Assembly (NCBI GenBank): GCA_964016885.1
Contig: OZ024743.1
Location: 121,086,001 to 121,150,000, forward strand
Origin: Eledone cirrhosa
Taxonomy: Eukaryota
Reading direction: 5' to 3'
DNA length: 64,000 nucleotides
This document shows, one piece after another, positions 4,973 through 39,131 of the stretch. Numbering within the stretch: position 1 is the stretch's first letter; each line of letters opens with the position of its first letter. The notes below the pieces were generated by a model that was given only the letters and a program-made list of their open reading frames with translations, ran no database searches and was not told the origin of the DNA. Position numbers and translations under genes: made by a program.

Positions 4973-6606
4973 ATACCATTCTTTCATCTGATATATCTCT
5001 AAATTATATTTTGTACAATAATTTATTTATTACTTCTTGTATATGTATGTGAATGTGTTTTTAAATGTTAGAGTTCGGTGATAATTTATATATTTCCACC
5101 AATTTATGCTATTTTGTGTTGTCTTCAGCTCTGATTTATGACATGCAACTAGTTAACTTATATTTAGACATTAGCCTCAAATCTGCCTTTCCATTTAACA
5201 TGCTTGTCCCTAGATGAATGCCACACTACATAATGGTATGTGCAGTGATGACTCGTCTTATACATTGCTGTAGAATCTACTGGTAAGCACAGCACCGGTG
5301 GATAATATAGACACGATTAGGGCGTGACAGTTACAGTTACTCAGTACATTGTACTGTTCATTCCCACACTGTATTTGGAATTAGTGCGGCTGCAGATTCT
5401 ATAGATATTTCTGCAAATATATTTTCGTGTAGCTAATTTTTTTCTGGAAATATAGCACGGGATTTATATGGAACTCGTGATTTGTCTTTTATGTGTATAG
5501 TGTTGAATTGGATGGTTTGCATATATTTTATGTTCCCTGCTATACCAGGCTTGTATTTTCCAAGAGGCGTTGTATCTTTTGTATATGAATGGATTGCGTA
5601 GAATGGGGTTGAAATATTTGCTGATGTTGATGATAAAAGATAGATCGGTACATATGGGAGGGTATTTTGTTGTTTTTGAAGCAGTTATGTATCATCTGTA
5701 TTAGGTTAGTGAGTGAGCCTTCTGCATTTTTATTGTACTTTCGATTTGTGTATCTAAGTCATGGCAAAGAGAAACATTTGTAAGACTGTTTATCATGCTT
5801 ATTAGATGGTGATGTTATTGCATGTTGTTACATCCCTCAAGGTTTTGTTGGTCTGTAGAATTGATATATTTTCCAGCTTCCACATTCAGAGATTTTGACA
5901 ATGTTGTGACGAGTAGTTGTATATGTTGGTGAATGCAGCGATTACTTCATGCCTGCGTATTTTAAGTGTCTACTTCTAATTTACATAGCTTTGAGATTTT
6001 AAATTCCTCTATCGTTTTGGTGTGTCTGGTCGACAGAAATCCTCAATTACACATATAAAAAGCCAATCCGATAAAATCCAGAAACAGCCTTAAACATAAA
6101 ACACTGACTCCCCTACAGAAATAAAATTCAGCATCAAAAGAATAAGCTAGTTAACAAAAACAATATAAAATGGAAAACGTTTGTATCTAATATAAACTTC
6201 AAAACTAACAATAAAATCCTATATATAGCACCATGCTACATTTTGAATTGAGCTGCTTTAGGTATTACACTAGTTCATATATAATGTTCTTTATTCCTGA
6301 ATAATCTTTTCTTTAAATTTGTGCGTTGTAGTCTTTGGTAGATTAATTCCTAAGTATAGTTTTGTTTAATTATTTTACCTATCCCATAGGGATCCTACTA
6401 AAAAAAAACCGCAACATGGATATTGAATCTTAGACAACCTTCATTTACAATTGGCTTAAAAGGAATTATAAGATAAATTAAAAATAAGAATCTAATTGAT
6501 AATAACAGAGAGGGGAAGAACATTGTTAAACAACTTGATCTTGAGAAATATATTAAACCTTACAAACTTTGAAACCCCAGATTTACTCAAAGTATCATAG
6601 ATTCTT

Positions 6607-6790
6607 CGGCAGTATCGGTAGAGGATATAACGCCATGCTTTGCAGCAAAGAGTTACGGCCCTTTATGGTCTGAGTTCAAATCCCACTGAGGTTAACTTGC
6701 TTTTCATCCTTACGGGGTCGATAAAATAAAGTACCAGTAATACACTGGGATACTTGCTGGCCTTGTGCCAAAAGTAGAAACAGTTATTAG
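6607..6790 (+). mobile_element. tRNA-derived SINE (~185 bp family, about 12 copies in window)
   Basis: Box A-like GGCAGTATCGG, box B GAGTTCAAATCC, core TTTCATCCTTACGGGGTCGATAAAATAAAGTACCAG, (ATT)-type tail; matches the other copies. Confidence 0.85.
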
Positions 6791-8822: not shown

Positions 8823-11715
8823 CTACAGGCTGATATAGACAGAAGGCCCATTCACTCGGGCCATTCTCGCCACTTTCACCCACCTTTCATAAAACTTGCT
8901 GGGGTACAGCACCTCTCTCTCCATTCTAATCATTCTTCTAAAATGGTACTTGAAAAAAAGGACCAGTTGTTGGCCAGAGAGAAAAGTGTCTGACCTCAGC
9001 CCTTTCAACCTCGTCCACCAAACAACCTCTTTCGCCATAGTTATCACATAGAGGAAAACCGCTTCTCCTTCGTTTTTGAAGGGGGGGGAGGCGGTTTGAT
9101 CGTGACAATGTACTCGGTGGTCAACCGGATTGGTCCCACCCGCGACAGTAGTCGTTCCACATAGCCCCACAGGTCAGCAACGCCCGGGCAGTGTACGAAT
9201 GCGTGCGCGACAGTTTCCTCGTCACGCACGCATCTCGGACAGATCTTCTTCGAGGGGTCCCTACCCGGGCGCCCGTGTCTGTAGAGCTTGTCCTGAACGG
9301 GTAGAGCTCCTCGGTAGCACTGCCAAGCCAGGGACTTTTGGAAGTTGTCCATCGGTCCCGGGCCAAACGTCCTACCGAACAGACTGGCTAGCTCGTCTTC
9401 CTCCATGCCCAGAGCCTCTCCGAGAGCGTCGTCGCACTTGCTGCGCACCAACCCTATATAGATGTTGAGGTTGAGTCTCCACTGATTGCCAGATCCGCTT
9501 GCCAGAGGGCCGTGAGCGCCTGGATACATTCAATGTGCCAGTCGCCCACTTTTCTCGGTCTTTGCTTGATCCAGGATTGCAGCTCGGTGAGTGAGACGAG
9601 TCTTGGAAAGGCACCCTTCACAAAAGGGGCCCATACCGGCTGACCGCTGAAGAATACCTGGAGATGCCGTAGCCTTAATGCGTGTCTACGCATCATCAGC
9701 CACGGTATCCCCAGCCCGCCGTTCGAAGGGTGTTGACAGCAGATGGATCTTCTCACCAAAGGGGCCCGCTTCTTCCAAAGGAATCGGAAGAGCACGCGCT
9801 CCATTTTGGCGAGCGTTTTCGCTGGGCAAGGCACGACGGTCAAGCGGTAGTAGATGACGGACGCTATATAAGTGTTCGCCACCGCTACATAAGTGTTCAC
9901 CTCCACTCGACCTTTCAGGGATAGTTTGCACTCGGCCCACTTCTGGGCGAGTGCAAACACCCTGCCCGTTACCTCGTCCCAGATTTCCTCCACCTGGAGG
10001 TCCGGTCCGAAACAGACCCCGAGAAGCTTCACCGGTCCCTCCGTCTACCGTCCGACGACGCCGTCGGAGGGCATCGGTTTGCCTCTCCACGTTCCGAGTT
10101 GCAAACCGACGGGCTTGTCCTGGTTCAGCTTGGCTCCTGTAAACCTTTCGTATTCCTCCAGTAAGGTGCCGATCTGCCCGATTTCCGAGGTGCACGACAC
10201 CATTACTGTCACGTCGTCGGCGTAGAACGACACCGCTTATCGCAATCCCGGTTCCAAGGGATTCCCTGCAACAGCTCCAACTTCCGCAGTAGTGGCTTGA
10301 GAGCCAGCACATACAGAAGGGAGGTGAGATGGCATCCCTGTCGGATGGATCGCGCGATTTGGAACGGCTCCGAGATGTAGCCGTTCACCTTGACCCTCGA
10401 GCAGGTGTTGCGGCTGAAATCGGCCTTTCCCAAGACTTCGCCTCCCCGTCCGAGAGCCGCGGCAGACCGTCGGGGTATGGACCGAAATCCATGGCCTAAC
10501 CCGGCCCGCCGCCCCTCCCGAACAGTAGTGCAAAGCGCCGTTGAAAGGTCCAAGGATCACGTGTCCATCCTGGTCCTTCAAAGATCGAATCGTAGACTTG
10601 CTTCCATGTTTTGCCTGTCACTCGGGCCCAGCTAACAGCGTTGGCTCCCTCGTTACCCAGAGCACGTATTTTACTCCTGACAACACAACCCTCATGCTTC
10701 GCGTCAAATAATTGGTCTAGGGCCGTTCTTGACGCCAGCACTCCGGCCACGTTGCCCCTCCTAATCGCCATTTCTACTCTATCTATCAATTCCCTTTCAG
10801 TTCTATTCCTATCTGATGCTAATTCCTGACTAAAACCTATCGATTCTATTCTAATTTCTCTCTTGAGAGAGCCCCACCACCTGCTGTTGACAATTTCCCC
10901 CGTCAACCGCTGCTTAACTAGAGTGGTAATCCTCTTACTGTAAGCTTTGTTTGTCGGTAAGGACAAGTTTAGCTTCCAGTAACCGGGTCCTTGTCTATAG
11001 CTTCTAACAAGGTTGACCACTCCGGTCACCAACTTGTGATCCGAATAGTCAACCATGAACATTCGTGGACAGCTTAATATGGCCCTATCCTTATTTCTAA
11101 CTAGGAACCTATCTAGGTACGACCTAGATGTTCCGCTGAGATTAGTCCACGTCCACAGTGGCACAGTCGGAAAATCTAGTCGATATCTATCGGCCAGATC
11201 AAATCGGCCGATTAACCCTTTGAGGCTGTTACACCCCACTCTATCGGGACATGCCCCTATATAGTTTCAACGTGCATCCAGGATACTATTCCAGTCCCCC
11301 ACTAAAAGCAAGGAGCAAGACGTTCCCAGAAAAGTCTCTAGGCGTTGGAAGAAGTCCGGTTGCGGTTTCCCAGATGGGGCATACGCTGCCACCAGCCTGA
11401 AGGCTCCACCTTCACTACTGCCTACGTCTAGAACCACCAGTCTCGCCCTCCGGGTCCAGGTGTACCATCCGTGTTGCGAAGCCCAGGTGTTTTTACAGCA
11501 GAACGACCACCCCTCCCCACCACCCACTGACAGAGAGATGCATAGATCTCAAAGTCATCGAAGATAGGGGTCAGTTAGTGCTCGCTGCTGATCCTGGACT
11601 CGCAAATAGCTATCACACCCATTCTGTGCGACCTGAGGTTATTTAAGAGTTTGCCCTGCTTCCAGGACATCCCCAGGCCGCGCACATTTAAATATCCAAC
11701 TCTTATAACAGCCAT
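8823..11715 (-). pseudogene. Copy A ORF2 (APE endonuclease - RT - CCHC), disrupted
   Basis: Starts MAVIRVGYLNVRGL at 11715; pieces 11267-11527, 10496-11239, 10209-10553, 10045-10233, 9454-10032, 9044-9529 and 8823-9170. Confidence 0.9.
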
Positions 11716-11758
11716 GTTGGTGGTGAAGAGTTTAGAGTGGAGAAAAAGCAAAAGACAC

Positions 11759-13600
11759 CTACCTGTCCGTCTCATGGGGACCAGGCTGCACAATTTCCAT
11801 GGGGGTGTCGGCGGGGTTGTTTGGTGGGGTGGTGGTTTGGGATGTGGTGGGGACATCAGTGTGTGGTGGGGTGGGGCTGTTTGGTTGTTTGGTGTGGGAG
11901 AGGTGTCTGGGGTGGTGGTGGGGAAACATTTCAAGAGGACGCGGTTGGTAGGTCTAGTACAGGGGTTGCCCATGTCCTCGGGAAAGTTCTGTTTGAGCAT
12001 TGCGTAGGTGTCCCTTGGGATCCTAATCATTTTTAAATGCGGTTTAGTCGCCGCGTTGGTGAACATTTTACCTTCGGTTTCCACCGAAGGGTCTTTGTCT
12101 ATTGTTTGCACAGTGTTTTGTTGTTTGTGTTGATGTATGTATACTGTTTTTTTTTGTGTTGTGTTTGTTTTTGTTTGTTGTTCTTGTGTGTGTTTTCGTT
12201 TTGTAGTATGTGTTATGTTTTCGGGAGGTGTGGGGTTTTTTGTTTGTGATGTTTGTTCTGTTTGTGCTGGTGGATGTGTGTTTGTTGCATTTTTGTTAAT
12301 GTAGTGCCTTTTCTTTCATTTTACAGGTTGAAAGGGTTCTCCCTCGTCGTCACTGGGTGACGTTGATAATGGGTCCTCGTCCGTGTTGTTGGGGAGAGGT
12401 ATATTTTGGAGTTTTGTTGTGGTTGTTTTGTATTTGTTTTAGGTGGGGAGGGGTTGGGTGGGACAGTGTCTTGTGTTGTTATTTTTCCGTTTTGTTGTTG
12501 TGGTGGTGGTGGTTGTTGTGTTGTTGTGTGTGGGGTGGGCAGAAGCGTCTTTTTTGAGGGGGGGTATATAAAAGGGGACAGGAAGTCCTCAGGTGACCAC
12601 TTATTGAACAGTGGTAGCATGAAGGCCGCCTGCCCTCAACAGAAATGTTTATGAAGGCGACTCCATCCAGGGACACACGCTGCGGTATTCTTGCTATCCA
12701 TTCTGGTCTCATTTGGACCAGAACTTCAAGGCTATTGCCGCCGAATACGCCCCCGGTGGATTCGCTTATCGAAAGGATTGTGTCCTCATCTTCTAAGAAT
12801 CCCATTAGCATCCACCAAATGCTCGCATTTGGCCTGATGCCCGAGATTCTTATCTTTTGAGTTCTTTTCCCCAAATATGTGGGGGAAAAAGGTGTATGCT
12901 TTGGATATAATTGGCGACACAGAATATTTCCGTGCCGCCAATTCATCTTGCATTAAAACAGATATGCTTCCATACAGTTTCCCTTTCTGTATGAAAGCCA
13001 TATCCTTCCAGGCACTACTTAGGACAAGCTCAATTTCGCTTTGTGATAATTGAGCGGTTTCCTAGTCGTGTTCGAAACTGTCCTAAAGATTACAGTCCTG
13101 AGGACTCTGTCCCTTCTAATTTCTTCGGGAGAGGTGATTGCGAATTCCCCACCTTCCCCGAAATTTACACAATTCCTTGCTTCTTTCAGCAATTTCTTGG
13201 CATTCGAGATGTCCAGTGCCTTGTATGTCTGCGTTTCTCGGACCGCCTGTGCGAAGAAGACTGCAGCTGTGGGTCCATTTTCTTTCGTGTTGTTATCATT
13301 GTTGTTTGTTATTCGTGTTGGCTTGCTTTTTTCCTTTGTTGGTGTTGTCATTATTGCTGTTGTTGGTTGTGTTGTCATTGTCATTGTTGCTGTTGTTGGT
13401 TGTGTTGTTATTGTCATTGTTGATCTTGTTTGTGTAATTGTTATTTTGGGGTTTTCACCAATTTCCACAATTATTTCTTTTGATTCCGTGATGTCTTTTG
13501 CGGGAGTGAGGAGGGAAGGATTACAGCGTTGTGCTGCTACCTTCTCTCTATCACTTTCCTTGGAGGGGGGGGGGGGCATGCGTCGGATTAATGGCGTCCA
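11759..13600 (-). pseudogene. Copy A ORF1 (gag-like RNA-binding protein, zinc knuckle CYHCSISGHLRTSC), frameshifted
   Basis: Track ORFs 13019-13579, 12786-13001, 12479-12946 and 11575-12111 align with copy B ORF1 pieces (RTV.FRTVSNTTRK, QMRPE.I..IP); ends MEIVQPGPHETDR-TAG at 11759-11761. Confidence 0.8.
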
Positions 13601-13796
13601 TTGTCACTAAACGACTTTTTATCGACAAATTAATTTCGCCCCAAAAAGGGGCGAAATTTATTTTACCCAACGTCTGCACGCCCAGGCGAGGGGTTAAACA
13701 CAACAAATAACAAATTACTTAAACAGACCTACCGCTTCTCGTAATAAAATCCGACAAAATGCAGAAGCGAAACAAAAACACGTCTATCTTCTCCGA

Positions 13797-13847
13797 GATA
13801 GATAGATAGATAGATAGATAGTTAGATAGATAGATAGATAGATAGAT
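13797..13847. repeat. (GATA)n tract between Tx1 copies A and B
   Basis: Direct reading. Confidence 0.95.
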
Positions 13848-14117
13848 TTCTTTTATTTGCCACAAGGGCGCACAAGAAAAGGGGACAATACAAAGACATA
13901 CCGGGGATTTTACATACAGTCGTGTAAAAAATATAAAACAAACAATTACAACAATCGAAATCCCCAATAGGGGGGAACCGCCACAAATGGGACGAGCTGT
14001 GGGAAAGCCTGTCTGACAAATGGTGCCCACACCAGTTGGGGGTCGATAGAACAACCATCAACCCCAGGAGCGTATTGTGCAAGTGGTCCTTTCTTCCTTT
14101 TGCTCTCTTCTTTAACA

Positions 14118-17100
14118 TACAGGCTTATAAACAGACAAGGCCCAATCACTCGGGCCGTTTTTGCTTCATTCACCCACCTTTCAGTAAATTTACTGGGGTG
14201 CAGTGCCTCTCTCTCCACTCTGATTCTCCTTCTAAAGTGATACTTAAAGAAGGGAATCAAATGTTTGTCCGGAGAGAAAGCATCTGTCTTCAGTCCTCTC
14301 AATCTCGTCCACCATATAACTTATTTCACCATAGCCACTGTACAGAGAAAAACCGCCTTTCTTTCGCTTTTGAGAAAGGCTGGCGGTTTGATCCTTACTA
14401 TGGACACGGGAGTCAACTGGATTTGTCCCATACGCGACAGCAGTTCTGCATAGTTCCACAGGTCGGTTACGCCCGGGCAGCGTACAATTGCGTGCAGGAC
14501 TGTTTCAATATCCTGCGCGCATCTTGGACACGTCCTCTTGGAAGGATCCCTGCCGAGGCGTCCGTGCCTGTATATCTTGTCACGACTCAGTAGAGCTCTA
14601 CGGTAGCACTGTCAGGCCAGGGACCTCTGCAAGTTGTCCATAGGTCTCGGGCGGAAAGTCCTACCAAACAGACTGGTGAGCTCATCGTCTCCGACGCACA
14701 GAGTCTCTCCGAGCACGTCGTCGCCCTTGTAACGTACAATCCCTCTATAGAATGTCGAAGTGGCGTCTACACTGATTGCTGCGCCCGCTTGCCAGAGGAC
14801 TGTGAGCGCCTGAGCGCATTCAATGTGCCAGGCGCCCATCGTTTTCGGTCTTTTCTTGACCCAAGACTGCAGCTCTGTCAGCGAGACGAGCTGTGGGAAA
14901 GCCTGTCTGACAAACGGTGCCCACACCGGTTGGGGGTCGGTGAGGAATACCTGGAGATGCCGCAGCCTCAGCGCATGTTTGTGCATCATCAAACACGGCA
15001 TTCTCATGCCTCCGTTGGAAGGGTGCTGAAAGCAGACGGATCTCGTCACCTGCGGAGCCTGCTTCTTCCACAGAAACTGGAAGAGCATGCGTTCCATCTT
15101 GGCGAGGTGTTCACGGTGACAAGGCACGACAGTCAAGCGGTAGTAGATGACGGACGCTATGAAAGTGTTCGCCACCTCCGCTCGACGTTTCAAGGACAGT
15201 TTGCACTCTGCCCATTTCTGGGTGAGCGCAAACACCTTGGCCGTCACCTCGTTCCAGTTTTTCTCCACCTGGAGGTCTGAACAGAACCAGACCCCGAGCA
15301 ATTTCACCGGTCTGTCCGTCCAGCATCCAACGACGCTGTCGGACGTCATCGGTTTGCGTCTCCACATACCGAGTTGCAAACCGACAGACTTGTCCGGGTT
15401 TAGTTTTGCTCCCGTCAGAGTTTCGTATTCTTTCAGTAAGTTGCCTATCACACCGATTCTCGAGGTGCTCGACACCATTACCGTCACGTCGTCGACATAA
15501 GCCGACGCCGCTTTGCGCAGTTCCGGTTCTAGAGGGATGCCCTGCAACAACTCCAATTTCCGCAGTAGTGACTCTAGAGTCAATACATACAGAATGGAAG
15601 AGAGAGGGCACTCCTGTCGAATGGAACGAGTGATTGCGAACGGCTCCGATAGGTAGCCGTTCGCCTTGACCCTCGAGTAAATGCTGGTGTGCATCGCCTC
15701 AATCCAGCCTCTGAAAACGGGACCGAAACCGGCCGCCTTGAGAACCGCTTCCAAGTATCGATGGTCGACCCTATCGAATGCCTTAGACTGATCCAAATTG
15801 ATCAGAGCCCCACCGAAGCCGAGTTTACTACCCACCCTCTCGATGCTGTATCGCATGAGGTGGAGGTTGTTGTGTATGGACCTGGTCGGGATTGCACACA
15901 TTTGCGCTTTCCCTACCAGGTTCTCGACGACAAGCACCAACCTCGTCGCTAGCACCTTGGCCAAAATCTTTAACTCTGTGTTGAGCAGAGTTATGGGCCT
16001 GAAGTTGTTAATTTCGTCCCCCTTGTTCTCGTCTTTCCTGATCAGCGTTACTACGCCCTTGCCTGCAGAACTGGGAATTCTCCCGTTCTGCTGCCAATTG
16101 CAGTAGACGGCTTCGAGGACGCCAGAGAACAAGTCCGGCATGCCTATGTAAAATTCATAGGGTAGACCATCTAGACCTGGTGACTTGCGTTTCCCGCAGC
16201 GGCCCAGAGCGTCAGTATCTCAGTGTCCGTGATCGGTCTTTCGCAGAACTCGGCGTCCGTGTTCGAGAGACGCGGCAGGCCATCGAGGTATCAACTAAAG
16301 TCCATTACCCCGTTCGGTTCACCGTCGTTCTGCTGAAACAGTCCGCAAAGTGCTGCTGAAAGGCTGCGCACATTTGCTTGGGGTCAAGTAGCACGCGTCC
16401 GTTTTGGTCTTTCAAAAACCCAATCGTGGACTTGTTGCCACTTTTTGCCTCCGCCACTCGGGCCCAGCTGACAACTTTCGCTCCTTCGTTTCCTAGAGCA
16501 CGTGTTTTGCTTCTGACCACGTAGCCTTCGTGTTTCACGTAGAAGAACTGGTCTAGTGCCGTTATCGACGTTAACACTCTATCCCCGTTTCCACTTCTAA
16601 GTGCCTCCTCTACCTTGGCTACTAGTTCTCTTTCTATTTTGCTTTTCTCTAAGGCTAACTCTCTGCTAAACTCTATCGATTCTACTCTAATTGCTTTCTT
16701 GAGAGAGTACCACCATCTATTGTTGACGATGGCTCCCTTTAACTGTTGCTTGACTAGTCTACTTATCCGTTCACTGTAAGCTTTACGTGCCGGCAACGAC
16801 ACGTTCAGCTTCCAGTATCCAGGTCCCTGTCTATGTATTCTATCACGGTTGACTAAGCAGACGACTAATTTGTGATCAGAGCAGGCAACCCTGTGCATTC
16901 GTGGTCAGCTTAACATCTCCTTGTCCCTTTCTCTAATGAAGAACCTATCTAAATACGATCTAGATGTCCCTCTGCGGTTTTCCCACGTCCACTGTGGTGC
17001 AGTCGGGAAATCCAGTCGATATCTATCGGCCAGTTGGAATTTGCCGATTAAAGTTTTGAGGCTGTTGCACCCCCACACCACCCCCCACTCTACTGGGACA

Positions 17101-30310: not shown

Positions 30311-30562
<252 letters not shown>

Positions 30563-30609
30563 TAGTGAAAAAGAACAAAGGAACTATTATGACATTATAA
30601 CAAGTTTAT

Positions 30610-30656
30610 TGCCGACAGCCGTTTCGTCCGACCCCGTGGTGAGACTTATCAAGGCA
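30610..30656 (-). ncRNA. Minimal type I hammerhead ribozyme, U3-A8 core
   Basis: tgcc TTGATAA gtct caccacggggtc ggac GAAA cggctg TC ggca, overlapping AATAAA. Confidence 0.8.
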
Positions 30657-31579
30657 TATAACATGTGATTGCAAGATCATTGTTTACATCAACGTATCAC
30701 TCAAGGCTAGCAGTTTGAAATTGTTGTATACATCAGCAACTCCGCTTTAAGGGGGGCTCTTTTATATTAGTTGTCGGGGTCAGGGATTGAAGTTTAAAAA
30801 TTAGACAAAAATATATAATTCACGCATCAACATTAAACCAAAAGACTTGGGGTCCCGCAGAAGTACCTCAGAAAATCCCTCAATGAGTGCATAAAGCTTA
30901 CAGACTCCAATACACCTATTAGTCTAGAAGAAAATTAAGAGGCTAATAAAATAAGAAAATAAAAATATAAAGTTTCCCTAAAAAATATATAGAGTTCCTA
31001 TGAAATTTCTTCTAGAGAAAAAAATTTTTTTCGAAAGAAAAAAACCCTCTTCCCCCGAGATCACGTTTACAAAATTCAGAAAACTGAATTGAAAACTAGG
31101 TTGAAAGAAACTAATCAATTAGAGGTTAATACAGAGAGCCTTCCATAAATCTCTCAGAAAAGGCCCCTTTACTATTTCCAGTAGGAACTTCTTCCGAGAG
31201 ACCCTTCGAAGAATTAACATTTTAGAGAGCCTTTGAGGATAAATATAAAAACGAATTGAGGAAAATTATACATTAAAAGTTAAAAATTAAAAATTACGGT
31301 ATTTGGGATATCCGAGGAATTTTCAAAGGGCTTCTTCAACAGATACAACTTAGGCATAATAGGTACAATAATCTAAGCAATTTAAGCAATTTAATTATGT
31401 AGCAATTCAAGGAGTTTATCAAGTTGGGCAAGTTTAAAGAAAGTGGTAACTAAGAAAATACATAAGCAAAAAGACAATAATCATAAAATGTATCCTTAAG
31501 AAGGTACAAGGTAGCTTCAGTGATCTAACCCCGTATTATCACAAAAAAACATTCCAAAATTATTGATACAGGATTAAAA

Positions 31580-31730
31580 ATTATTACAAAATCATTACAA
31601 AATTACCACAAAATCATCACAAAATTATCAAATCATCACAAAATTACCACAAAATCATTACAAAACCATCAAATTATCATAAAATTATCGCAAAATTATT
31701 ACAAAATTATCATAAAATTATTGCAAAAAT
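31580..31730. repeat. ~11-bp minisatellite (CAAAATYAYYA)n inside Penelope 3' region
   Basis: Repeated acaaaattatc / acaaaatcatc / acaaaattacc. Confidence 0.85.
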
Positions 31731-33063
31731 ATAACAGGATGAACATTACTGGTGACCGTGTGGGCGCGATATCCATTCTGCCTATGCAGTCCCCTGCACA
31801 GCTCCAGGCACGATATCCACTAGGCGTAAGCAGTCATCTGCCTAGCTCCAGGCGTAGCTGGTCATGTTTAAACGTTCATAGATCACCTGGGGTTCACTAT
31901 TATCTGCGTGGACTCTCTGGGAGATGTACCTGTGGATCTAATAGCCAGTGGTTGCCGGATGTGGTCCGTTCGATCCTTTAGTTTCAGGGGTTGAACGCTT
32001 TCGCGATAGACGAGCCTGCTGGTTCTAAGTCCAAAGTTTCGCCACGCATGATGTATTGGTCCACATGCTATATCGTTAAAAAACCAGTGTGGATTTGACT
32101 GGGGTGGTATATTACGAACTCCAAGTCCGCACGCGACTGGTCAAAAGCGAAGGGCTGTCCTCTCTTTGTTTGCTGTATGGGTCGTTCTCAGCTTAGATGG
32201 TGGTCGTGTTATCCATATTCCGTCAGCCCTGTATATTCAAGACAGATCAGGGTATGTATTTGCGGGTATGGTCCTGTGTCTACGTTATCCAGAGGGTCTC
32301 GCTTGTGGTATTTTCAAGTTCGCATGTCATCTCCCGGTTAAGACTGCGCATGCTTCGGTGAATCTCAAGCATGGAATCTTAGGGTATCATATTACACGGG
32401 GTGACCAGCAGAAAATATACATTCTATGCTATCGCGCACGCGCTGGCCTGTGGCTACGACCGTGTCCAGTCTCGGGTAGTAGCAGACAGCAGGTAGACCA
32501 GCTATACACACCCCTGATCAAGGGGCACAACCCCTAATTCATCGAGTGGTCAGACTTCAAGGGAGTCAACTCTCCAAGCCCATTATGTCAACCGTGGTGA
32601 AATACAAAAAAATTCCTATTAGTAAAGAACTAATCACTGATAATAAAGAACCAGCTCAAAAGAATGGGGGGGGGCATCTATTTGTGCGGGGGTTTACTAG
32701 GGGAGGGGGTTGGGGTGAGTTGCTATAGGCAGGGAGCGGCCGCCATATTGGGTGTTTTGTTACTGTTTCCCTAGGCAGTTCTCGAGTTTGTTGACATACA
32801 TCTCCGACGGCACCCTCTCAGATTAGTCAACGTGGTTCCAGGCCCTCACGATGTCCTGCATCGCAGGCATCAGCTGCCCCCCGGTTGCCCAGCAACAGTG
32901 TTGCCACCAATCCCAGGTTGGCAATTGGGACACAGGGTCGTCTGTTCCTCACCAGAGTCCCCATCGCCAATCGGGGAGCCGAGGCATCCATGCGGCCGGG
33001 GTTACCACAGAGCACCCTGTACGCCAGCGGGGCCGCCACGTGCAGGACTGGGTGGTGCCATGG

Positions 33064-33598
33064 CTATGTGTCCGGTCTAAAGAAAAAGAAAGAGCTAAGT
33101 ATGGTATGGGGGCAGGACGAGAAGATTTCTGATCTCCTGTTGAGCAAGTTGAGCCCTGAGAATACTATGGCATGAGATTCAGATAGGCATAGGCTACAAC
33201 ACCTGCTCAACGAGCTATATGGAGGAGCCTTAGTAAGGCATCTCCAGCTGAGTGTGTAGGGGGTTTTTGTTTGTTTTAAGCTATGTATATGCCCCGCTAA
33301 CGACGTGGTATTTTTAAGCTTCTCATTTCGGAAGCTATGCTGGTGGGCGTTGAACCTCGTCTTGAACTCATTAGCGGTTGATCCTACGTACGTCTTACTA
33401 TACGTGCCTGTGGTTACGTTACAAGCATATACCACGTTCCTGATAAGGCAGTGTCCAGCTAGTGGGCATTTGTCCTTCTTTCTGCAATTACACTCTTTAG
33501 TAGGGACATGCCCCTCAATCAGGGGTGCATGTCCCTCCAAGCGGCCCCGGGGCTGCCTAGTGGGACCGGTTCTATTGCCTAATATCCCCTGGGTCTTT
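33064..33598 (-). CDS. Penelope GIY-YIG endonuclease domain, out of frame with the RT
   Basis: CNCR..CPL.G.CL, VVY..YVGST, FKTRFNAH, CSLCLSE, LLNRRSE..CPH. Confidence 0.92.
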
Positions 33599-35535
33599 CA
33601 CTCAGTGGGTTGGTCCCGTGTTGTCGTGTGTGCTGGCGTGGTTCACTATTTCGGATGGCCTTAAGTCCCTCTTTGATCTTACTCTTATTGGTCTTAGCTA
33701 GGTGTGAGGCCAGATTAGGGGTTGTAGAGTACGATAGCTTGACAGTATTCTTATTGATGACACTACCGTACCTACTACCCGGGGGGAAGTTCTTATCTAT
33801 TAAAGAGAAAAAAGATTTGGGGAGGTCTGTAGTAACATTAGAGTTGAAGGGCGGGTTAAAGAAGGTACTATCACGTCTTCTATTCCTTCCACTGCATTTC
33901 CTATCCCCTATGCAGTTTGCCCTCTCTTCGTCTATATTATCACTGGTTCCACCAGGTGTGGTTGCTGTACACCCAGTGGTATGTGCGTTGGTCTCAAGTC
34001 TCCTAGGCCTCTGTCCCCCGTTTTCACTGTTGGACTTGCTTGGGGCGGCATAGCGCTTACCAGGCGTGCGGGCCCTGTCCGTGTCTGCGTTGCGAGTGTT
34101 GCTGTTCTTATCTAACTTCCTATTGTCCCTATTCGTCTTTCTAGCTCTCCCTCCAACTCCCATGGACATATTGTGCGTGATTACAGTGCTGGGCTGGGGT
34201 GGCGGGGTGGTGCCTCCTGTCTCAACATAATGGAGTTTATCTTTGTGCCCTGACCCAGTTAGCGCCTTATTGTAATATTCCGCGTTCGCTTCAAATGCGG
34301 TCACGCTGCTAGATAGTCCGCTAATCCTACTAGATACTGCTTTAACTATTGCTTTGAATACTGAGCCTGGGTGGTTGGATCTGGCATTGACGTATGTCAG
34401 CCTTTCGTTAGGTTTATGGTACGGTGCATATTCTAACTTATCTAGGTCTAGTGAGGCGTCTAAAAAGTTGACTACCTTACTATTTCTATCCATAGTTATT
34501 GATAGGTTAAAATTCTTGAAGAATTTATAAAGGTCCTTTCTAGTTCTTTCTAGGTTGTGCCGTTTAAAGTCCACAGTAAGCAATGCGTCGTCACGGTATA
34601 GCCCACCTCTGAGGTGTGGGAGCTGCTCGTTGAGCTCCTTGAGCAGGTACAATCCGACGAGGTCTGTCACCTGCGCTGAGTCGCTAGACCCCATAGTGAT
34701 GTCGAAATTGTTACGAGTGTTCTTGCGCGTCCACAATTCATCCTCAAAAGTGATAATTGTTTTACGAGCGGCAAGGACTATGTCAATCTGGGATCTAGCG
34801 AGTCCGCCCGTCCGCATTGCCAACATGAGCGCCTTATTTAGTAGTATGGGGGATATAGACGTATAGTAGGAGTCTATATCGAACTGGATGAAGCGTAGTG
34901 ACTTGTGGTTGCTAATGCTTGAGAACCACTTTATCACTTCTGCAGTGTTTCCCCATAGGTCCAGGCTAATTCTGTCTTTAACTTTCGGTATGACTTCATC
35001 TAGTATTTTTTTACTTATATTCCCTATGTCAGATTTAGAGGGGCTAATGAGCCTGACAGAGGGGCTACTTGCAAAGTCCTCCTTATGGTCTTTCAGTGTG
35101 AACCTTGGTTGTCGGGGGGTATAAGGTTGTGTGCATTTCTCTAATCCTAGCTTCGTTACTATCACTTTAGCCTCCCTGTTAATCTCATCTAGGTTGGCTA
35201 CAGTGGTTTTTTTATAGTTTTTATGTAGCTCGTTGTATATGAAGCCGCGGTATTCCTCATAGCTCAGGTTGTACATATTCCTAGTCTTGTCCGGGGGTAC
35301 TAGTATACACTTTCTGTCCTTAAAAGATTTAACTAGTGATTCTAACTTTGTTTGGAAGCCGCTACGCTTACAGTTATTTCTTTTATATCTAATATATCTA
35401 GTCTTGTCCGAGGGTACTAGTATACACTTTCTGTCCTTAAAAGATTTAACTAGTGATTCTAACTTTGTTTGGAAGCCGCTACGCTTTGTTTGGAAGCCGC
35501 TACGCTTACAGTTATTTCTTTTATATCTAATATTT
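33579..35535 (-). CDS. Penelope reverse transcriptase (N-terminally truncated; the track start at 35600 lies in adjacent repeat DNA)
   Basis: DKTRNMY, LKDHKEDF..VRLISP, FDIDSYY, ITMGS, YRDD, FLD, YHKPN..YVNARSNHP, FFNPPF, NKNTVKLSYS. Confidence 0.92.
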
Positions 35536-35566
35536 AAAAAAATAGAGGTGTAACACACGAGTTGTG

Positions 35567-36072
35567 ATATATTAGTAAAAGGAAAAGAAAATGCTGACAC
35601 ATTTTTCCCAGTGAAAAATAGTTTAATTAGGAATAAGTATAAATTAGTAATAAGTATTGGTTAGTATTCAGTTTTAGTTTAAAGTTTTTACCGGTTGCGC
35701 ATTTCTAATGCTTTTCAAAAATAATTTTGAGATAGAGTGTCGTGATGTTTGCTCTAATCTGATCAGTTTTGGAAATTCTTCCTGTTTTATATGAAAAAAG
35801 TGGCTCCAGAGGTATTAAGATTTGGTTGGTTGCGCCAATTCGTGTTGCAGAAATTCTTGTAGACTACAAAATTGATCAGATTAGAGCAAACATCACGAGC
35901 GCTCTATCTCAAAATTATTTTTGAAAAGCATTAGAAATGCGCAACCGGTAAAAACTTAAAACTAAAACTGAATACTAACCAATACTTATTACTAATTTTT
36001 ACTTATTCCTAATTAAACTATTTTTCACTGGGAAGAATTTGTTAGCATTTTCTTTTCCTTTTACTAATATAT
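35567..36072. repeat. Inverted repeat (~205-bp arms, ~95-bp spacer) with a hammerhead-like motif in each arm
   Basis: 35567-35771 mirrors 35867-36072; ttt TTGAAAA gcat tagaa atgc GCAA ccgg TA aaa at 35918-35953 (+) and 35686-35721 (-). Confidence 0.88.
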
Positions 36073-36585
36073 ATATATATATATATATAGGAACCAGTAA
36101 GACCCCAACGGCTTGAGCTCAGCCGTCGGGGTCTTACTGGTTCCTATTACCCACTCTACTACCCTAAGTATTGAGTACTTTGGTGCGTTATGGTGCACCT
36201 GGTTCCTTACCACATTTCCTTCGTTATATATATATATATATATAATCTCTACTCTAAAGGTTATTTACAACGGCTGTGAGGTATAAATTTTATTTATATA
36301 TTGAATGCCCGGTAAATATATATGAAAATAGATGTGTGTTAGCTTAGATATAAATAAATATAGTATCAGAAGAAAATACACACCGCTACATAAGACGAAT
36401 GGACAGATGCATCATCTTCTCGACAGCCACTTTGATGAGACGGTATATCTGCTAGTGATGCTTATCTTTCAGGCAACACTAAGATGAATAAGATGAGCAA
36501 CTCTAGCAGATAAACGTATGTAAAACCTATCGTAGAGTGAGCTTTGAAATCTTAAATAGCATGCAACCGTGTTGAGAATAAATTT

Positions 36586-36689: not shown

Positions 36690-37472
36690 AAATGTAATCT
36701 GAGTTTTTCGAACTTTAATAATAATTGTTTCTACTTTTGGCACAAGGCCAGCAATCATATCAGTGAATTACTGGTACTTTATTTTATCGACCCCGCAAGG
36801 ATGAAAGGCAAAGTTAGCCTCGGCGGGATTTGAACTCAGATCGTAAAGGCCCGTAACTCCATGCTGCAAACCATGGCGTCCGACCCGCTAACGATACTGC
36901 CAATCCACCGCCCTTTTAATAATAATATTCGATTCGTTTGTAATTATGTAAACAAGCCTCTGTTGGCATGTAAACAGAACTGCAGACACTAATGTTTATG
37001 CGTATTACCCTTCATCAGTACAGTTTACTGTTCACCTGCCAACTGTTAGAGCTAGTGAAAATATATGCTATTTTTTAAAATATACTGTGACTGATCTGCC
37101 TGATTTGCATATTAGCTGACTGGCTGATCAGTCAAATCTGCATATTAGCGGATCCACTGATCAGACAGATTTGCATATCAGTAGACTAGCTAGTCAGTTT
37201 CCTATATACGAGCGATTAATAGCCGGCTTTGCTAAATCAGTCACTGTATATTTAGAAAATATATATTTTCACTAGCTCATCAGTACAGTTCACTGTACTG
37301 ATGAAGGGTAATACCCAGAAACATTAATTTCTGCAGTTCTGTTTACATGCCAACACAACAGCAAGAATGAGAGGGTTTATTCTACTGACATGGCTATAAA
37401 AATTAGGCTTGTTTGCATAATTGAAACGAATCGAATATTATTATTAATATTCGAAAAACTCAGATTACATTT
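36690..37472. repeat. Large imperfect palindrome (Penelope pLTR-like) with one arm interrupted by a SINE
   Basis: 36691-36725 mirrors 37437-37472; 36920-37095 mirrors 37237-37445; hammerhead-like motifs at 36980-37023 (-) and 37293-37336 (+). Confidence 0.82.
36726..36912 (-). mobile_element. tRNA-SINE copy inserted at AATAATAAT
   Basis: Family match; flanked by taataataat on both sides. Confidence 0.88.
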
Positions 37473-37518: not shown

Positions 37519-37567
<49 letters not shown>

Positions 37568-37573
<6 letters not shown>

Positions 37574-38692
37574 ATATTTGGGGAGGGTCATATTTGCGTA
37601 ATATTGCCAGAATTAATAACAGAACACACTCACTGTTTGGTTGGTTTTCGCTTCTCGCTGTCTTTTATATATATATATCTGCGATCTAACTTACTCGGTC
37701 CTCAATGTTGCCATTGACTGACCGGCGGTCAAAAATAATACAGATACAATATAGACAAACACATATATATATAGTTTACATAAATCTTTCGTTGCACATC
37801 TGCAACATCGTCAGTGGTGTTATATTCATTGTTCCTCCTGTTGTGTTGTATGTCTACGCCATTTTTTTTTTGTTCAGTCTGTCTATATATTTATTTATTT
37901 ATTTGCTTGTTTGTTTATCTTATTTTATTTTGTCTTCTTTGCGCATGCGTTTGCGTGTGTGTATAGTGTGTGATGTGTGACTAGTGTGTATAGTGTTGTG
38001 TCTGCTGGGTGACTAGTGTGTGTTTATGTGCTTGTGTATGTATTTATTTATCTTATTTTATTTAATTTAATTTACTTATTTATTTATACTTCTCTTAGGT
38101 CAGTGTTGTTTGTTTGGGTGTTGTTGTTGTTCCACTCATTCTTTCTGTTTAGCTTTGGTCTTCTAATTTCTATTTCACTGGCCTCTCTGATTTGCCTATC
38201 TGCTGGGTCATTCCTATGTTTAGATATTATTCTAATTTCTATGTTGTCTATGTTACCGTCATGATGTTGTCTAGCATGTTCGTATAGTACTGACCCGTTT
38301 TTTCGTCCTTTTAGTTCCCCCCAGTGTTGGTCTATCCTTTCACCTATGCTACGAGCTGTCTCACCTACGTATGTTGTTGTCGTGTTTCTGCAAGTACCCT
38401 CTGTACATCTTATGCTATAGACTACGTTTCTAGTTTTACAGTTTATCCGATGTTGCAGATGTGCAACGAAAGATTTATGTAAACTATATATATATGTGTT
38501 TGTCTATATTGTATCTGTATTATTTTTGACCGCCGGTCAGTCAATGGCAACATTGAGGACCGAGTAAGTTAGATCGCAGATATATATATATAAAAGACAG
38601 CGAGAAGCGAAAACCAACCAAACAGTGAGTGTGTTCTGTTATTAATTCTGGCAATATTACGCAAATATGACCCTCCCCAAATATAACAATAT
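37568..38692 (-). mobile_element. Truncated Penelope element of a second family: GIY-YIG domain plus terminal repeat, with inverted copy of the repeat at the 5' break
   Basis: Minus-strand translation of ~38120-38440 (absent from track): CKTRNVVYSIRC..YVGETARSIGERIDQH..SVLYEHARQHH..RQIREASEI..PKLNRKNEW; 37568-37810 is inverted at 38448-38692. Confidence 0.9.
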
Positions 38693-39095: not shown

Positions 39096-39131
39096 CTTTA
39101 CCGGTTTCGCAGTTCTTCTGCTTTTCAAAAG
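39096..39131 (-). ncRNA. Minimal hammerhead ribozyme, U3-A8 core
   Basis: ctt TTGAAAA gcag aagaa ctgc GAAA ccgg TA aag, with AATAAA just downstream. Confidence 0.75.

What the first reader, a model, noticed from the sequence alone, without database searches (positions are those of the whole stretch)
32807..33061. ~255-nt nested RNA structure with a possible pseudoknot starting 3 nt after the Penelope stop codon
Nested helices read by eye: 33054-61/32807-14, 33041-48/32853-60 (8 bp perfect), 33024-36/32873-84, 33014-21/32931-38 and 33007-11/32941-45, plus hairpins 32958-77 and 32978-96 and interleaved TTGCCA/TGGCAA with TCCCA/TGGGA (32901-32930, H-type pseudoknot pattern). Several mismatches are G-U wobbles only on the element's sense strand. 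Established: PLE RTs are the sister group of telomerase RT, which uses a structured pseudoknotted RNA. Inference: a cis-acting RT-binding domain or other functional RNA that I do not recognise as described.
Basis: partly seen in the sequence, partly recalled or inferred. Interest (0 to 1): 0.7.

Follow-up and report, generated by a model that had tools for sequence, protein, structure and literature searches.

The report
Loose hairpin behind a retrotransposon gene
Just behind the stop codon of one family of Penelope-like jumping genes lies an imperfect inverted repeat that is predicted to fold into a long loose RNA hairpin; only one of its stems shows clear paired changes and related families lack it, so it is likely a family-specific message-stabilising fold or a copying relic, not a telomerase-like domain.

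Summary
The helices are in the sequence, on the minus (sense) strand of a Hydra-clade Penelope-like element, but this copy flatters them. It folds best of 69 family copies, helped by two letters found in only 2 of 69. The outer helix P1 is complete in 2 of 69 copies and P5 in 17; subfamily majority sequences fold like shuffles (z -1.6 to +0.5), and whole-structure permutation tests are not significant (p 0.10-0.20). What holds across subfamilies is an imperfect inverted repeat with its axis near 32950, reaching back into the last codons, and one well-supported helix, P2 (33048-41/32860-53; one two-sided and three one-sided changes, 0 of 400 permutations). The pseudoknot stems are nearly invariant, so untested. 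No match was found in 64 loci of other Hydra families; in 4 of 30 the hammerhead follows the stop by about 100 nt, leaving no room for such a domain. No Rfam, ribozyme or SECIS match. The element's known RNA, a hammerhead core, lies at 30622-30652. Best reading: a fold-back relic under weak RNA-level selection, likely shielding a 2.4-kb 3' region; neutrality is nearly as likely. A telomerase-like RT-binding domain is unlikely.

The parts
33579..35660 (-). RT-bearing reading frame of a Hydra-clade Penelope-like element (5' end rearranged in this copy)
   Evidence: DKT and YRDD motifs read from the translation
33064..33597 (-). CxCX5C linker and GIY-YIG endonuclease frame; out of frame with the RT part by a one-base gap near 33587; stop TAG at 33066-33064
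   Evidence: (PF01541, E 0.0017, below the curated cut-off)
32813..33085 (-). imperfect inverted repeat / predicted long irregular hairpin, axis near 32945-32950, beginning in the last codons and enclosing the stop codon
   Evidence: found after the fact
32853..33048 (-). helix P2, 33048-33041 with 32860-32853: the only helix with a subfamily-level two-sided change
32876..33033 (-). P3 core, 33033-33029 with 32880-32876, nearly invariant
   Evidence: chosen after seeing the alignment
32958..32977 (-). hairpin H2, stem invariant, loop variable
32901..32930 (-). possible H-type pseudoknot (S1 32930-26/32915-11, S2 32924-19/32906-01); compatible with all subfamilies but without subfamily-level two-sided change; S2 competes with a local hairpin 32904-32890
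31200..33063 (-). family-specific internal 3' region of about 1.9 kb between the stop codon and the pLTR (left end approximate)
30559..31200 (-). 3' pseudo-LTR (about 110 nt shorter than in intact copy L102), ending at a (TA)n tract
30622..30652 (-). hammerhead-ribozyme-like core in the pLTR, 2.4 kb after the stop codon
   Evidence: pattern from recall, not an Rfam hit; expected place per PMC4209133 and PMC8557442

Best explanation
The segment is the core of an imperfect inverted repeat of about 270 nt at the start of the long 3' region of one Hydra-clade Penelope-like family, predicted to fold on the sense RNA into a loose hairpin across the stop codon that likely arose by a fold-back template switch and likely persists under weak selection as a stop-proximal stabiliser of the message. 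Shown: the element type, the family-only distribution, the shared symmetry axis of P0, P2 and two inner helices, and paired changes in P2. Inferred: the fold-back origin; folding in vivo; the job, which would be to compact and shield the RNA just behind the terminating ribosome in a transcript whose 3' region (about 2.4 kb to the hammerhead) is about ten times longer than in most sampled Hydra elements, much as the Rous sarcoma virus stability element insulates the gag stop from nonsense-mediated decay.
For: Arms align as reverse complements better than dinucleotide shuffles in 7 of 10 copies (at most 5 of 500 shuffles), and the centre 32945-32950 is the best of about 100 centres in 3 of 3 copies; the family model also hits the opposite strand of the same segment (39.7 bits). 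P0, P2 and two inner helices lie on one diagonal within 4 nt. Best 8-bp helix (support matches P2): 0 of 400 column permutations with two reference copies, while none of 21 control region/strand/reference runs fell below 58 of 400. All 5 shared changes in P2 keep pairing, against 1 of 7 private ones. Sense-minus-antisense consensus energy 5 of 372 permutations with default scoring. No indel among nine subfamily majority sequences over 33063-32780, though parts of the UTR further 3' have many. Template switching happens here: copy L073 carries a micro-inversion between the S1 arms, and the window has fold-backs at 35567-36072; it can create and maintain stems (PMC8794818, abstract). Hammerhead-like core 92-329 nt after the stop in 13 of 30 other Hydra loci, but at 2.3-2.6 kb in this family.
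Against: Shared changes are denser here (0.20 per nt) than in the ORF (0.08) or the UTR further 3' (0.14). Subfamilies have different minimum-energy folds. The P2 signal rests on one two-sided event, and a second, mutually exclusive 7-bp helix (32865-59/32853-47) is equally compatible with all subfamilies. With a C-lineage reference P2 fell out of the test (three G-U pairs). Sister families whose 3' regions also look long (hammerhead-like core at +2705 in L096) have no such segment. No functional or expression data at all.
Confidence: 0.4

Rival explanations
1. Neutral relic: an old fold-back duplication in a G+C-rich UTR, decaying, with occasional palindrome-templated changes; no RNA function.
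For: Family z-scores near zero; whole-structure permutations p 0.10-0.20; highest substitution density of the regions compared except the 77 nt just behind it; absent from sister families; L073 inversion; different subfamilies gain different local palindromes.
Against: P2 keeps pairing through G-U-forming changes, which templated copying would not make; no indel in 283 nt across nine subfamilies.
Confidence: 0.37
2. Double-stranded RNA handle or switch: the long hairpin is a substrate for Dicer or ADAR, or flips between P2 and the local 32865-47 hairpin (and between P0 open and closed) as ribosomes pass the stop, tuning translation against RNP formation.
For: Long rod geometry; P0 pairs with the last codons; two mutually exclusive helices both survive all subfamilies.
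Against: No excess of A-to-G over T-to-C on the sense strand among private or shared letters (p 0.64 and 0.37); helices are short (10 bp or less) and interrupted.
Confidence: 0.12
3. One reading: a cis-acting RT-binding domain related in kind to telomerase RNA, with a pseudoknot.
For: S1 and S2 can form in all nine subfamilies; 27 of 69 copies (older-looking lineages) carry a 10-of-11 match to a telomere-type repeat in the loop between P0 and P2; PLE and telomerase RTs are sister groups (PMC8557442).
Against: No homolog in 64 loci of other Hydra families; no room for it in 4 of 30 loci; no two-sided subfamily change in S1 or S2; no U-run for a triple helix; the repeat-like motif is at background in the window copy (8 of 11; 86 of 200 shuffles) and no fetched family locus has a telomere array; the anole PLE needs RNA at the ORF start beside the hammerhead (PMC11167929).
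Confidence: 0.06
4. A self-cleaving ribozyme or SECIS element after the stop.
For: PLEs carry hammerheads (PMC4209133); some Naiad PLEs have SECIS elements 1-21 nt after the stop (PMC8557442).
Against: No Rfam match; no hammerhead or SECIS core pattern in the segment; no in-frame TGA in the intact ORF; the hammerhead is elsewhere (30622-30652).
Confidence: 0.02

Closest known systems
Hydra clade of C-terminal EN+ Penelope-like elements (Craig et al. 2021, PMC8557442, section 11)
   Same: RW(R/K) N-terminal motif, DKT, CxCX5C linker, no CCHH, CxxC and CxH around the catalytic E and N, (TA)n target, hammerhead-like core in the pLTR, single ORF in intact copies.
   Different: About 5.2 kb with a 1.9-kb internal 3' region and an 877-codon open frame with insertions between RT and EN, against 'generally short (<3 kb)'; the hairpin is not described in the passages read.
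[quoted passage not shown]
   Same: Lies immediately behind a stop codon that is followed by a long 3' region; similar size (minimal 155 nt).
   Different: No sequence relation tested or expected; its function is shown by mutagenesis, here there is none; a resemblance of position only.
RT-recruiting RNA of the anole Poseidon element PAc (PMC11167929, parts 1-2 of 4 read)
   Same: Same class of element; a structured cis RNA that the RT uses.
   Different: It lies in the pLTR/first 172 nt of the ORF next to the hammerhead; this segment is outside the pLTR, 2.4 kb from the hammerhead.
Telomerase RNA template/pseudoknot core (features recalled, not from a call)
   Same: A closing helix, a single-stranded stretch, then stacked helices and a possible pseudoknot; a repeat-like motif in older-looking copies.
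   Different: No U-rich triple-helix strand, pseudoknot small and local, motif lost in 42 of 69 copies, no Rfam match, not conserved beyond one family.
Template-switch hairpins (PMC8794818, abstract read)
   Same: Reverse-complement repeats made and repaired by template switching; one copy here shows a micro-inversion.
   Different: That paper deals with short stems in RNA genes; here the arms are about 130 nt and old.

Membership tests
Hydra-clade PLE (the host element) | C-terminal GIY-YIG without CCHH, with CxCX5C linker and CxxC/CxH motifs | tested here: met
   Translation against the definition; PF01541 weak hit
Hydra-clade PLE (the host element) | DKG changed to DKT; N-terminal RWK-type motif | tested here: met
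   DKT; RWR in intact copies
Hydra-clade PLE (the host element) | pLTR with hammerhead; insertion in (TA)n | tested here: met
   hammerhead by recalled core pattern, below Rfam detection
Hydra-clade PLE (the host element) | RT groups with named Hydra elements in a tree | not tested
   No named Hydra sequences were fetched; the paper's supplements were not opened
Telomerase-RNA-like RT-binding domain | Conserved across related elements with covarying pseudoknot | tested here: not met
Telomerase-RNA-like RT-binding domain | Template of about 1.5 telomere repeats | tested here: inconclusive
   10 of 11 match in 27 of 69 copies, background in the window copy; no telomere arrays in family loci
Telomerase-RNA-like RT-binding domain | U-rich strand for a pseudoknot triple helix (recalled feature) | tested here: not met
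   No run of three U in the window segment
Telomerase-RNA-like RT-binding domain | Binds the RT | not testable with these tools
   Needs a binding assay
Self-cleaving ribozyme (hammerhead, HDV-like, twister and others in Rfam) | Catalytic core sequence and fold | tested here: not met
   Rfam gathering 0 hits; E up to 10 gives only a sub-threshold miRNA-hairpin match over 32910-32978; no hammerhead core; one HDV-loop-like hexamer lies inside stem H2
SECIS element | AUGA/AA/GA core and in-frame UGA in the ORF | tested here: not met
   no core, no in-frame TGA in L102
Stop-proximal RNA stability element (RSV type) | Directly behind a stop codon followed by a long 3' region | tested here: met
Stop-proximal RNA stability element (RSV type) | Protects the RNA from nonsense-mediated decay | not testable with these tools
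   Needs reporter assays
Fold-back (inverted duplication) relic | Arms are collinear reverse complements about one axis | tested here: met
   7 of 10 copies at 5 or fewer of 500 shuffles; 3 of 10 weak (22, 49, 131); axis chosen after the fact but best of about 100 centres in 3 of 3 copies

The most novel reading that the evidence does not exclude
This Hydra family has acquired a structured RNA domain of its own that clasps the stop codon (P0), presents a single-stranded stretch that in older copies reads like a telomere-repeat template, and carries a small pseudoknot: a telomerase-like RT scaffold or termination-coupled switch built de novo by fold-back in a retrotransposon 3' region.
Probability: 0.06. 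Interest if true: 0.8.

Novelty: new member of a known kind. Interest (0 to 1): 0.24.

Why it matters
If the hairpin is functional it would be a first cis element in the internal 3' region of a Penelope-like element (none found in searches) and a case of an RNA structure born by fold-back and then kept. As the evidence stands it is a modest, family-limited signal, and a caution: a single transposon copy can look far more structured than its family because of one or two private letters.

Tried and rejected
Rfam at gathering and E-value thresholds: nothing relevant. Hidden coding: open antisense frames over the segment have no Pfam match below E 0.03 and variable sites show no codon period (23/23/14, against 21/9/7 in the ORF). 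ADAR footprint: no A-to-G excess. The same geometry in sister families: best centres at +122 to +124 in L081 (6 of 300) and L083 (33 of 300) but folding z about 0 and no sequence link, so set aside. Model R1 gave four short hits (14.9 bits or less, 35-49 nt) in L114 and L116, 3.5 kb upstream of the endonuclease on the other strand: treated as noise. My revised 48-54-pair model fits very well (2 of 48 broken; 96% paired) but was chosen after seeing the alignment and is not counted as a test. Viral contigs: no relative. Sequencing runs: no RNA holder listed; four laid runs showed almost only the subfamily letters already seen. Earlier scan notes: nothing on this sequence or genome. A genome-wide search for the fold outside the family could not be run; 59 of the 60 fetched DNA hits have both ORF end and downstream UTR, and the other has an internal deletion, but these were the best-scoring hits only.

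Full report
Setting. The finding lies on the minus strand just behind the stop codon (TAG, 33066-33064) of a Penelope-like element. The protein has DKT, YRDD, a CxCX5C linker, a GIY-YIG domain without CCHH, and CxxC/CxH motifs, the definition of the Hydra clade in PMC8557442 (passages and section 11 read). An intact copy from the same genome (L102) runs pLTR of about 750 bp, open frame of 877 codons, internal 3' region of about 1.9 kb, pLTR. The segment is therefore outside the pLTR. A hammerhead-like core lies in the pLTR at 30622-30652, 2.4 kb after the stop (pattern recalled), where PMC4209133 (passages) places PLE hammerheads.

Observation. The window segment folds at -121.4 kcal/mol, z -2.86, but the opposite strand gives z -2.83. 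Rfam has no match.

The family. A DNA search of the own genome scored 40 of 168 candidates at 93-100%; a protein search listed 150 rows, 101 at 80-100% and 49 at 59-62%, none between. From 85 fetched loci, 84 covered the segment and 15 were dropped as identical over it (13 the same place fetched twice, 2 distinct loci equal to L003), leaving 69 copies. The window copy has the lowest energy of the 69; two letters that improve its pairing, at 33058 and 32882, occur in 2 of 69. Majority sequences of nine subfamilies give z -1.57 to +0.51, and 4 of 45 windows elsewhere in L102 reach -2.5 to -3.3.

Helix by helix. Complete in k of 69 copies: P1 2, P5 17, P4 20 (core 58), hairpin 32978-96 35, P2 54, P3 core 55, S1 57, S2 61, H2 62; a 31-copy alignment agrees. 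Of changes shared by 4 or more copies, none of 9 in P1, P5 and the 32978-96 hairpin keep pairing; all 5 in P2 do. P2 has one U-A/C-G change and three changes to or from G-U. In a permutation that moves column patterns among like bases and takes the best of all 8-bp helices of the reference copy, 0 of 400 reached the observed support with L003 or L069 as reference (the support value matches P2; the helix itself was not printed); with L138 as reference P2 was filtered out for three G-U pairs; none of 21 control runs fell below 58 of 400. The pseudoknot stems are compatible with all subfamilies but show only one-sided shared changes; the single two-sided change is in one copy, L066.

Whole structure. 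Structures predicted from four majority sequences: p 0.10-0.54 for broken pairs. Consensus folding against permutations: 325 of 1805, 39 and 49 of 372. The sense strand does better than the antisense with default scoring (5 of 372) but not with ribosum scoring (195 of 372). Shared changes are 0.20 per nt here, 0.08 in the endonuclease, 0.14 in 32600-32270, but there is no indel among the majority sequences over 33063-32780. So constraint, if any, is weak and sits mainly in P2.

What the segment is. The model built from the family also matches the opposite strand of the segment. Left and right halves align as reverse complements better than shuffles in 7 of 10 copies, and 32945-32950 is the best of about 100 centres in 3 of 3 copies. 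P2, two inner helices (33019-10/32890-81 and 33006-01/32896-91) and an outer helix P0 (33081-72/32817-26), which pairs with the last codons, share one diagonal within 4 nt; P0 and the inner helices were found after the fact. This is the anatomy of an old fold-back duplication. PLEs often form inverted copies (PMC8557442), this window has one at 35567-36072, copy L073 has a micro-inversion inside the segment, and template switching can make and repair stems (PMC8794818, abstract). The origin is inferred, not shown.

Other families. Twenty loci at about 60% endonuclease identity and 30 at 37-52% have unrelated 3' sequence. In 11 representatives the first 255 nt are 22-47% G+C against 63% here, and 1 of 11 has z below -2. 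Model R1 found no full match in 64 loci (16 of the 30 distant own-genome loci, all 20 sister loci, all 28 metagenome loci). A hammerhead-like core follows the stop by 92-329 nt in 13 of 30 non-family loci, by 92-106 nt in 4 of them. A clade-wide RT-binding domain at this place is thus excluded; structure without any sequence likeness in the long-UTR sisters is not strictly excluded but was not seen.

Mechanism. In the one PLE tested in vitro, the RNA needed includes the first 172 nt of the ORF next to the hammerhead, and reverse transcription starts there (PMC11167929, parts 1-2 of 4). The equivalent here is the pLTR end, not this segment. What is unusual in this family is the long 3' region; a stop-proximal element that insulates against nonsense-mediated decay is known from Rous sarcoma virus (PMC2925335, abstract). 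I commit to a weakly selected stabilising hairpin (0.40), with a neutral relic close behind (0.37). The function is a guess from position; sister families with seemingly long 3' regions lack the segment, which counts against it. One oddity keeps the telomerase analogy from zero: 27 of 69 copies have a 10-of-11 match to a telomere-type repeat across the stop, in the loop between P0 and P2, but it is lost in the window's lineage, was noticed after the fact, and no fetched family locus holds a telomere array.

Literature. Searches found no description of a structured internal 3' region in Hydra or other PLEs; the library lacks most subscription papers, and the supplements of PMC8557442, which may hold consensus Hydra families, were not opened. 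bioRxiv 10.64898/2026.07.22.740005 (part 1 of 5 read) concerns hammerheads in pLTRs only.

Verdict. Observation partly confirmed, interpretation partly supported, interest 0.24.

Noticed in passing
window 30622-30652 (-): Hammerhead-like core with the variant start UUGAUAAG in the pLTR; not detected by Rfam. A weaker look-alike at 39105-39128.
   Followed up: partly
L074, L138 and other C-lineage copies, equivalent of window 33069-33050: A TAACCC-TGACCC-CACCC run across the stop codon, 10 of 11 to a telomere-type repeat in 27 of 69 copies; PMC8557442 mentions (NNNCCC)n stretches in EN-minus PLEs. Decayed in the window's lineage.
   Followed up: partly
window 32600-32270 (-); L102 minus-strand 6381-6635: A second self-complementary stretch in the 3' region: z -3.1, second-best palindrome centre (about 32330-32390), lower substitution density than the finding. 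No covarying 8-bp helix.
   Followed up: partly
L073 (about 106-149 nt after the stop): Micro-inversion between the arms of hairpin S1 in a single copy.
   Followed up: partly
window 32977-32958 and 32930-32911: Hairpins H2 and S1 resemble each other; in the youngest subfamilies one change (32967) makes their loops complementary, which drives the window's minimum-energy fold.
   Followed up: partly
window 35275-35533, 35567-36072, 36084-36149: 5' end of this copy: tandem duplications of 117 and 21 nt inside the ORF, a 171-nt fold-back, and a short perfect hairpin beside (TA)n.
   Followed up: no
window 31555-31754: A-rich tandem array with an 11-nt unit in the element's 3' region, variable between copies.
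   Followed up: no
G000: Very many Hydra-type endonuclease candidates in this genome (54,251 and 68,363 first-look candidates, 150 scored each) in at least ten lineages; those at 50-62% identity to this family seem to have long, mutually unrelated 3' regions, where the published clade is short.
   Followed up: partly
window 9000-16900 (-): Two broken copies of a non-LTR retrotransposon with endonuclease and RT frames; family not determined.
   Followed up: no
window 37566-37810 and 38448-38692: Perfect 245-nt inverted repeat 637 nt apart, possibly another PLE or MITE end.
   Followed up: no
window 36760-36860: A SINE-like repeat that I recall from octopus sequences; recalled only, not tested.
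   Followed up: no
L063, L077, L144: Single copies with internal deletions of the 3' region that start shortly behind the hairpin and leave it intact.
   Followed up: no
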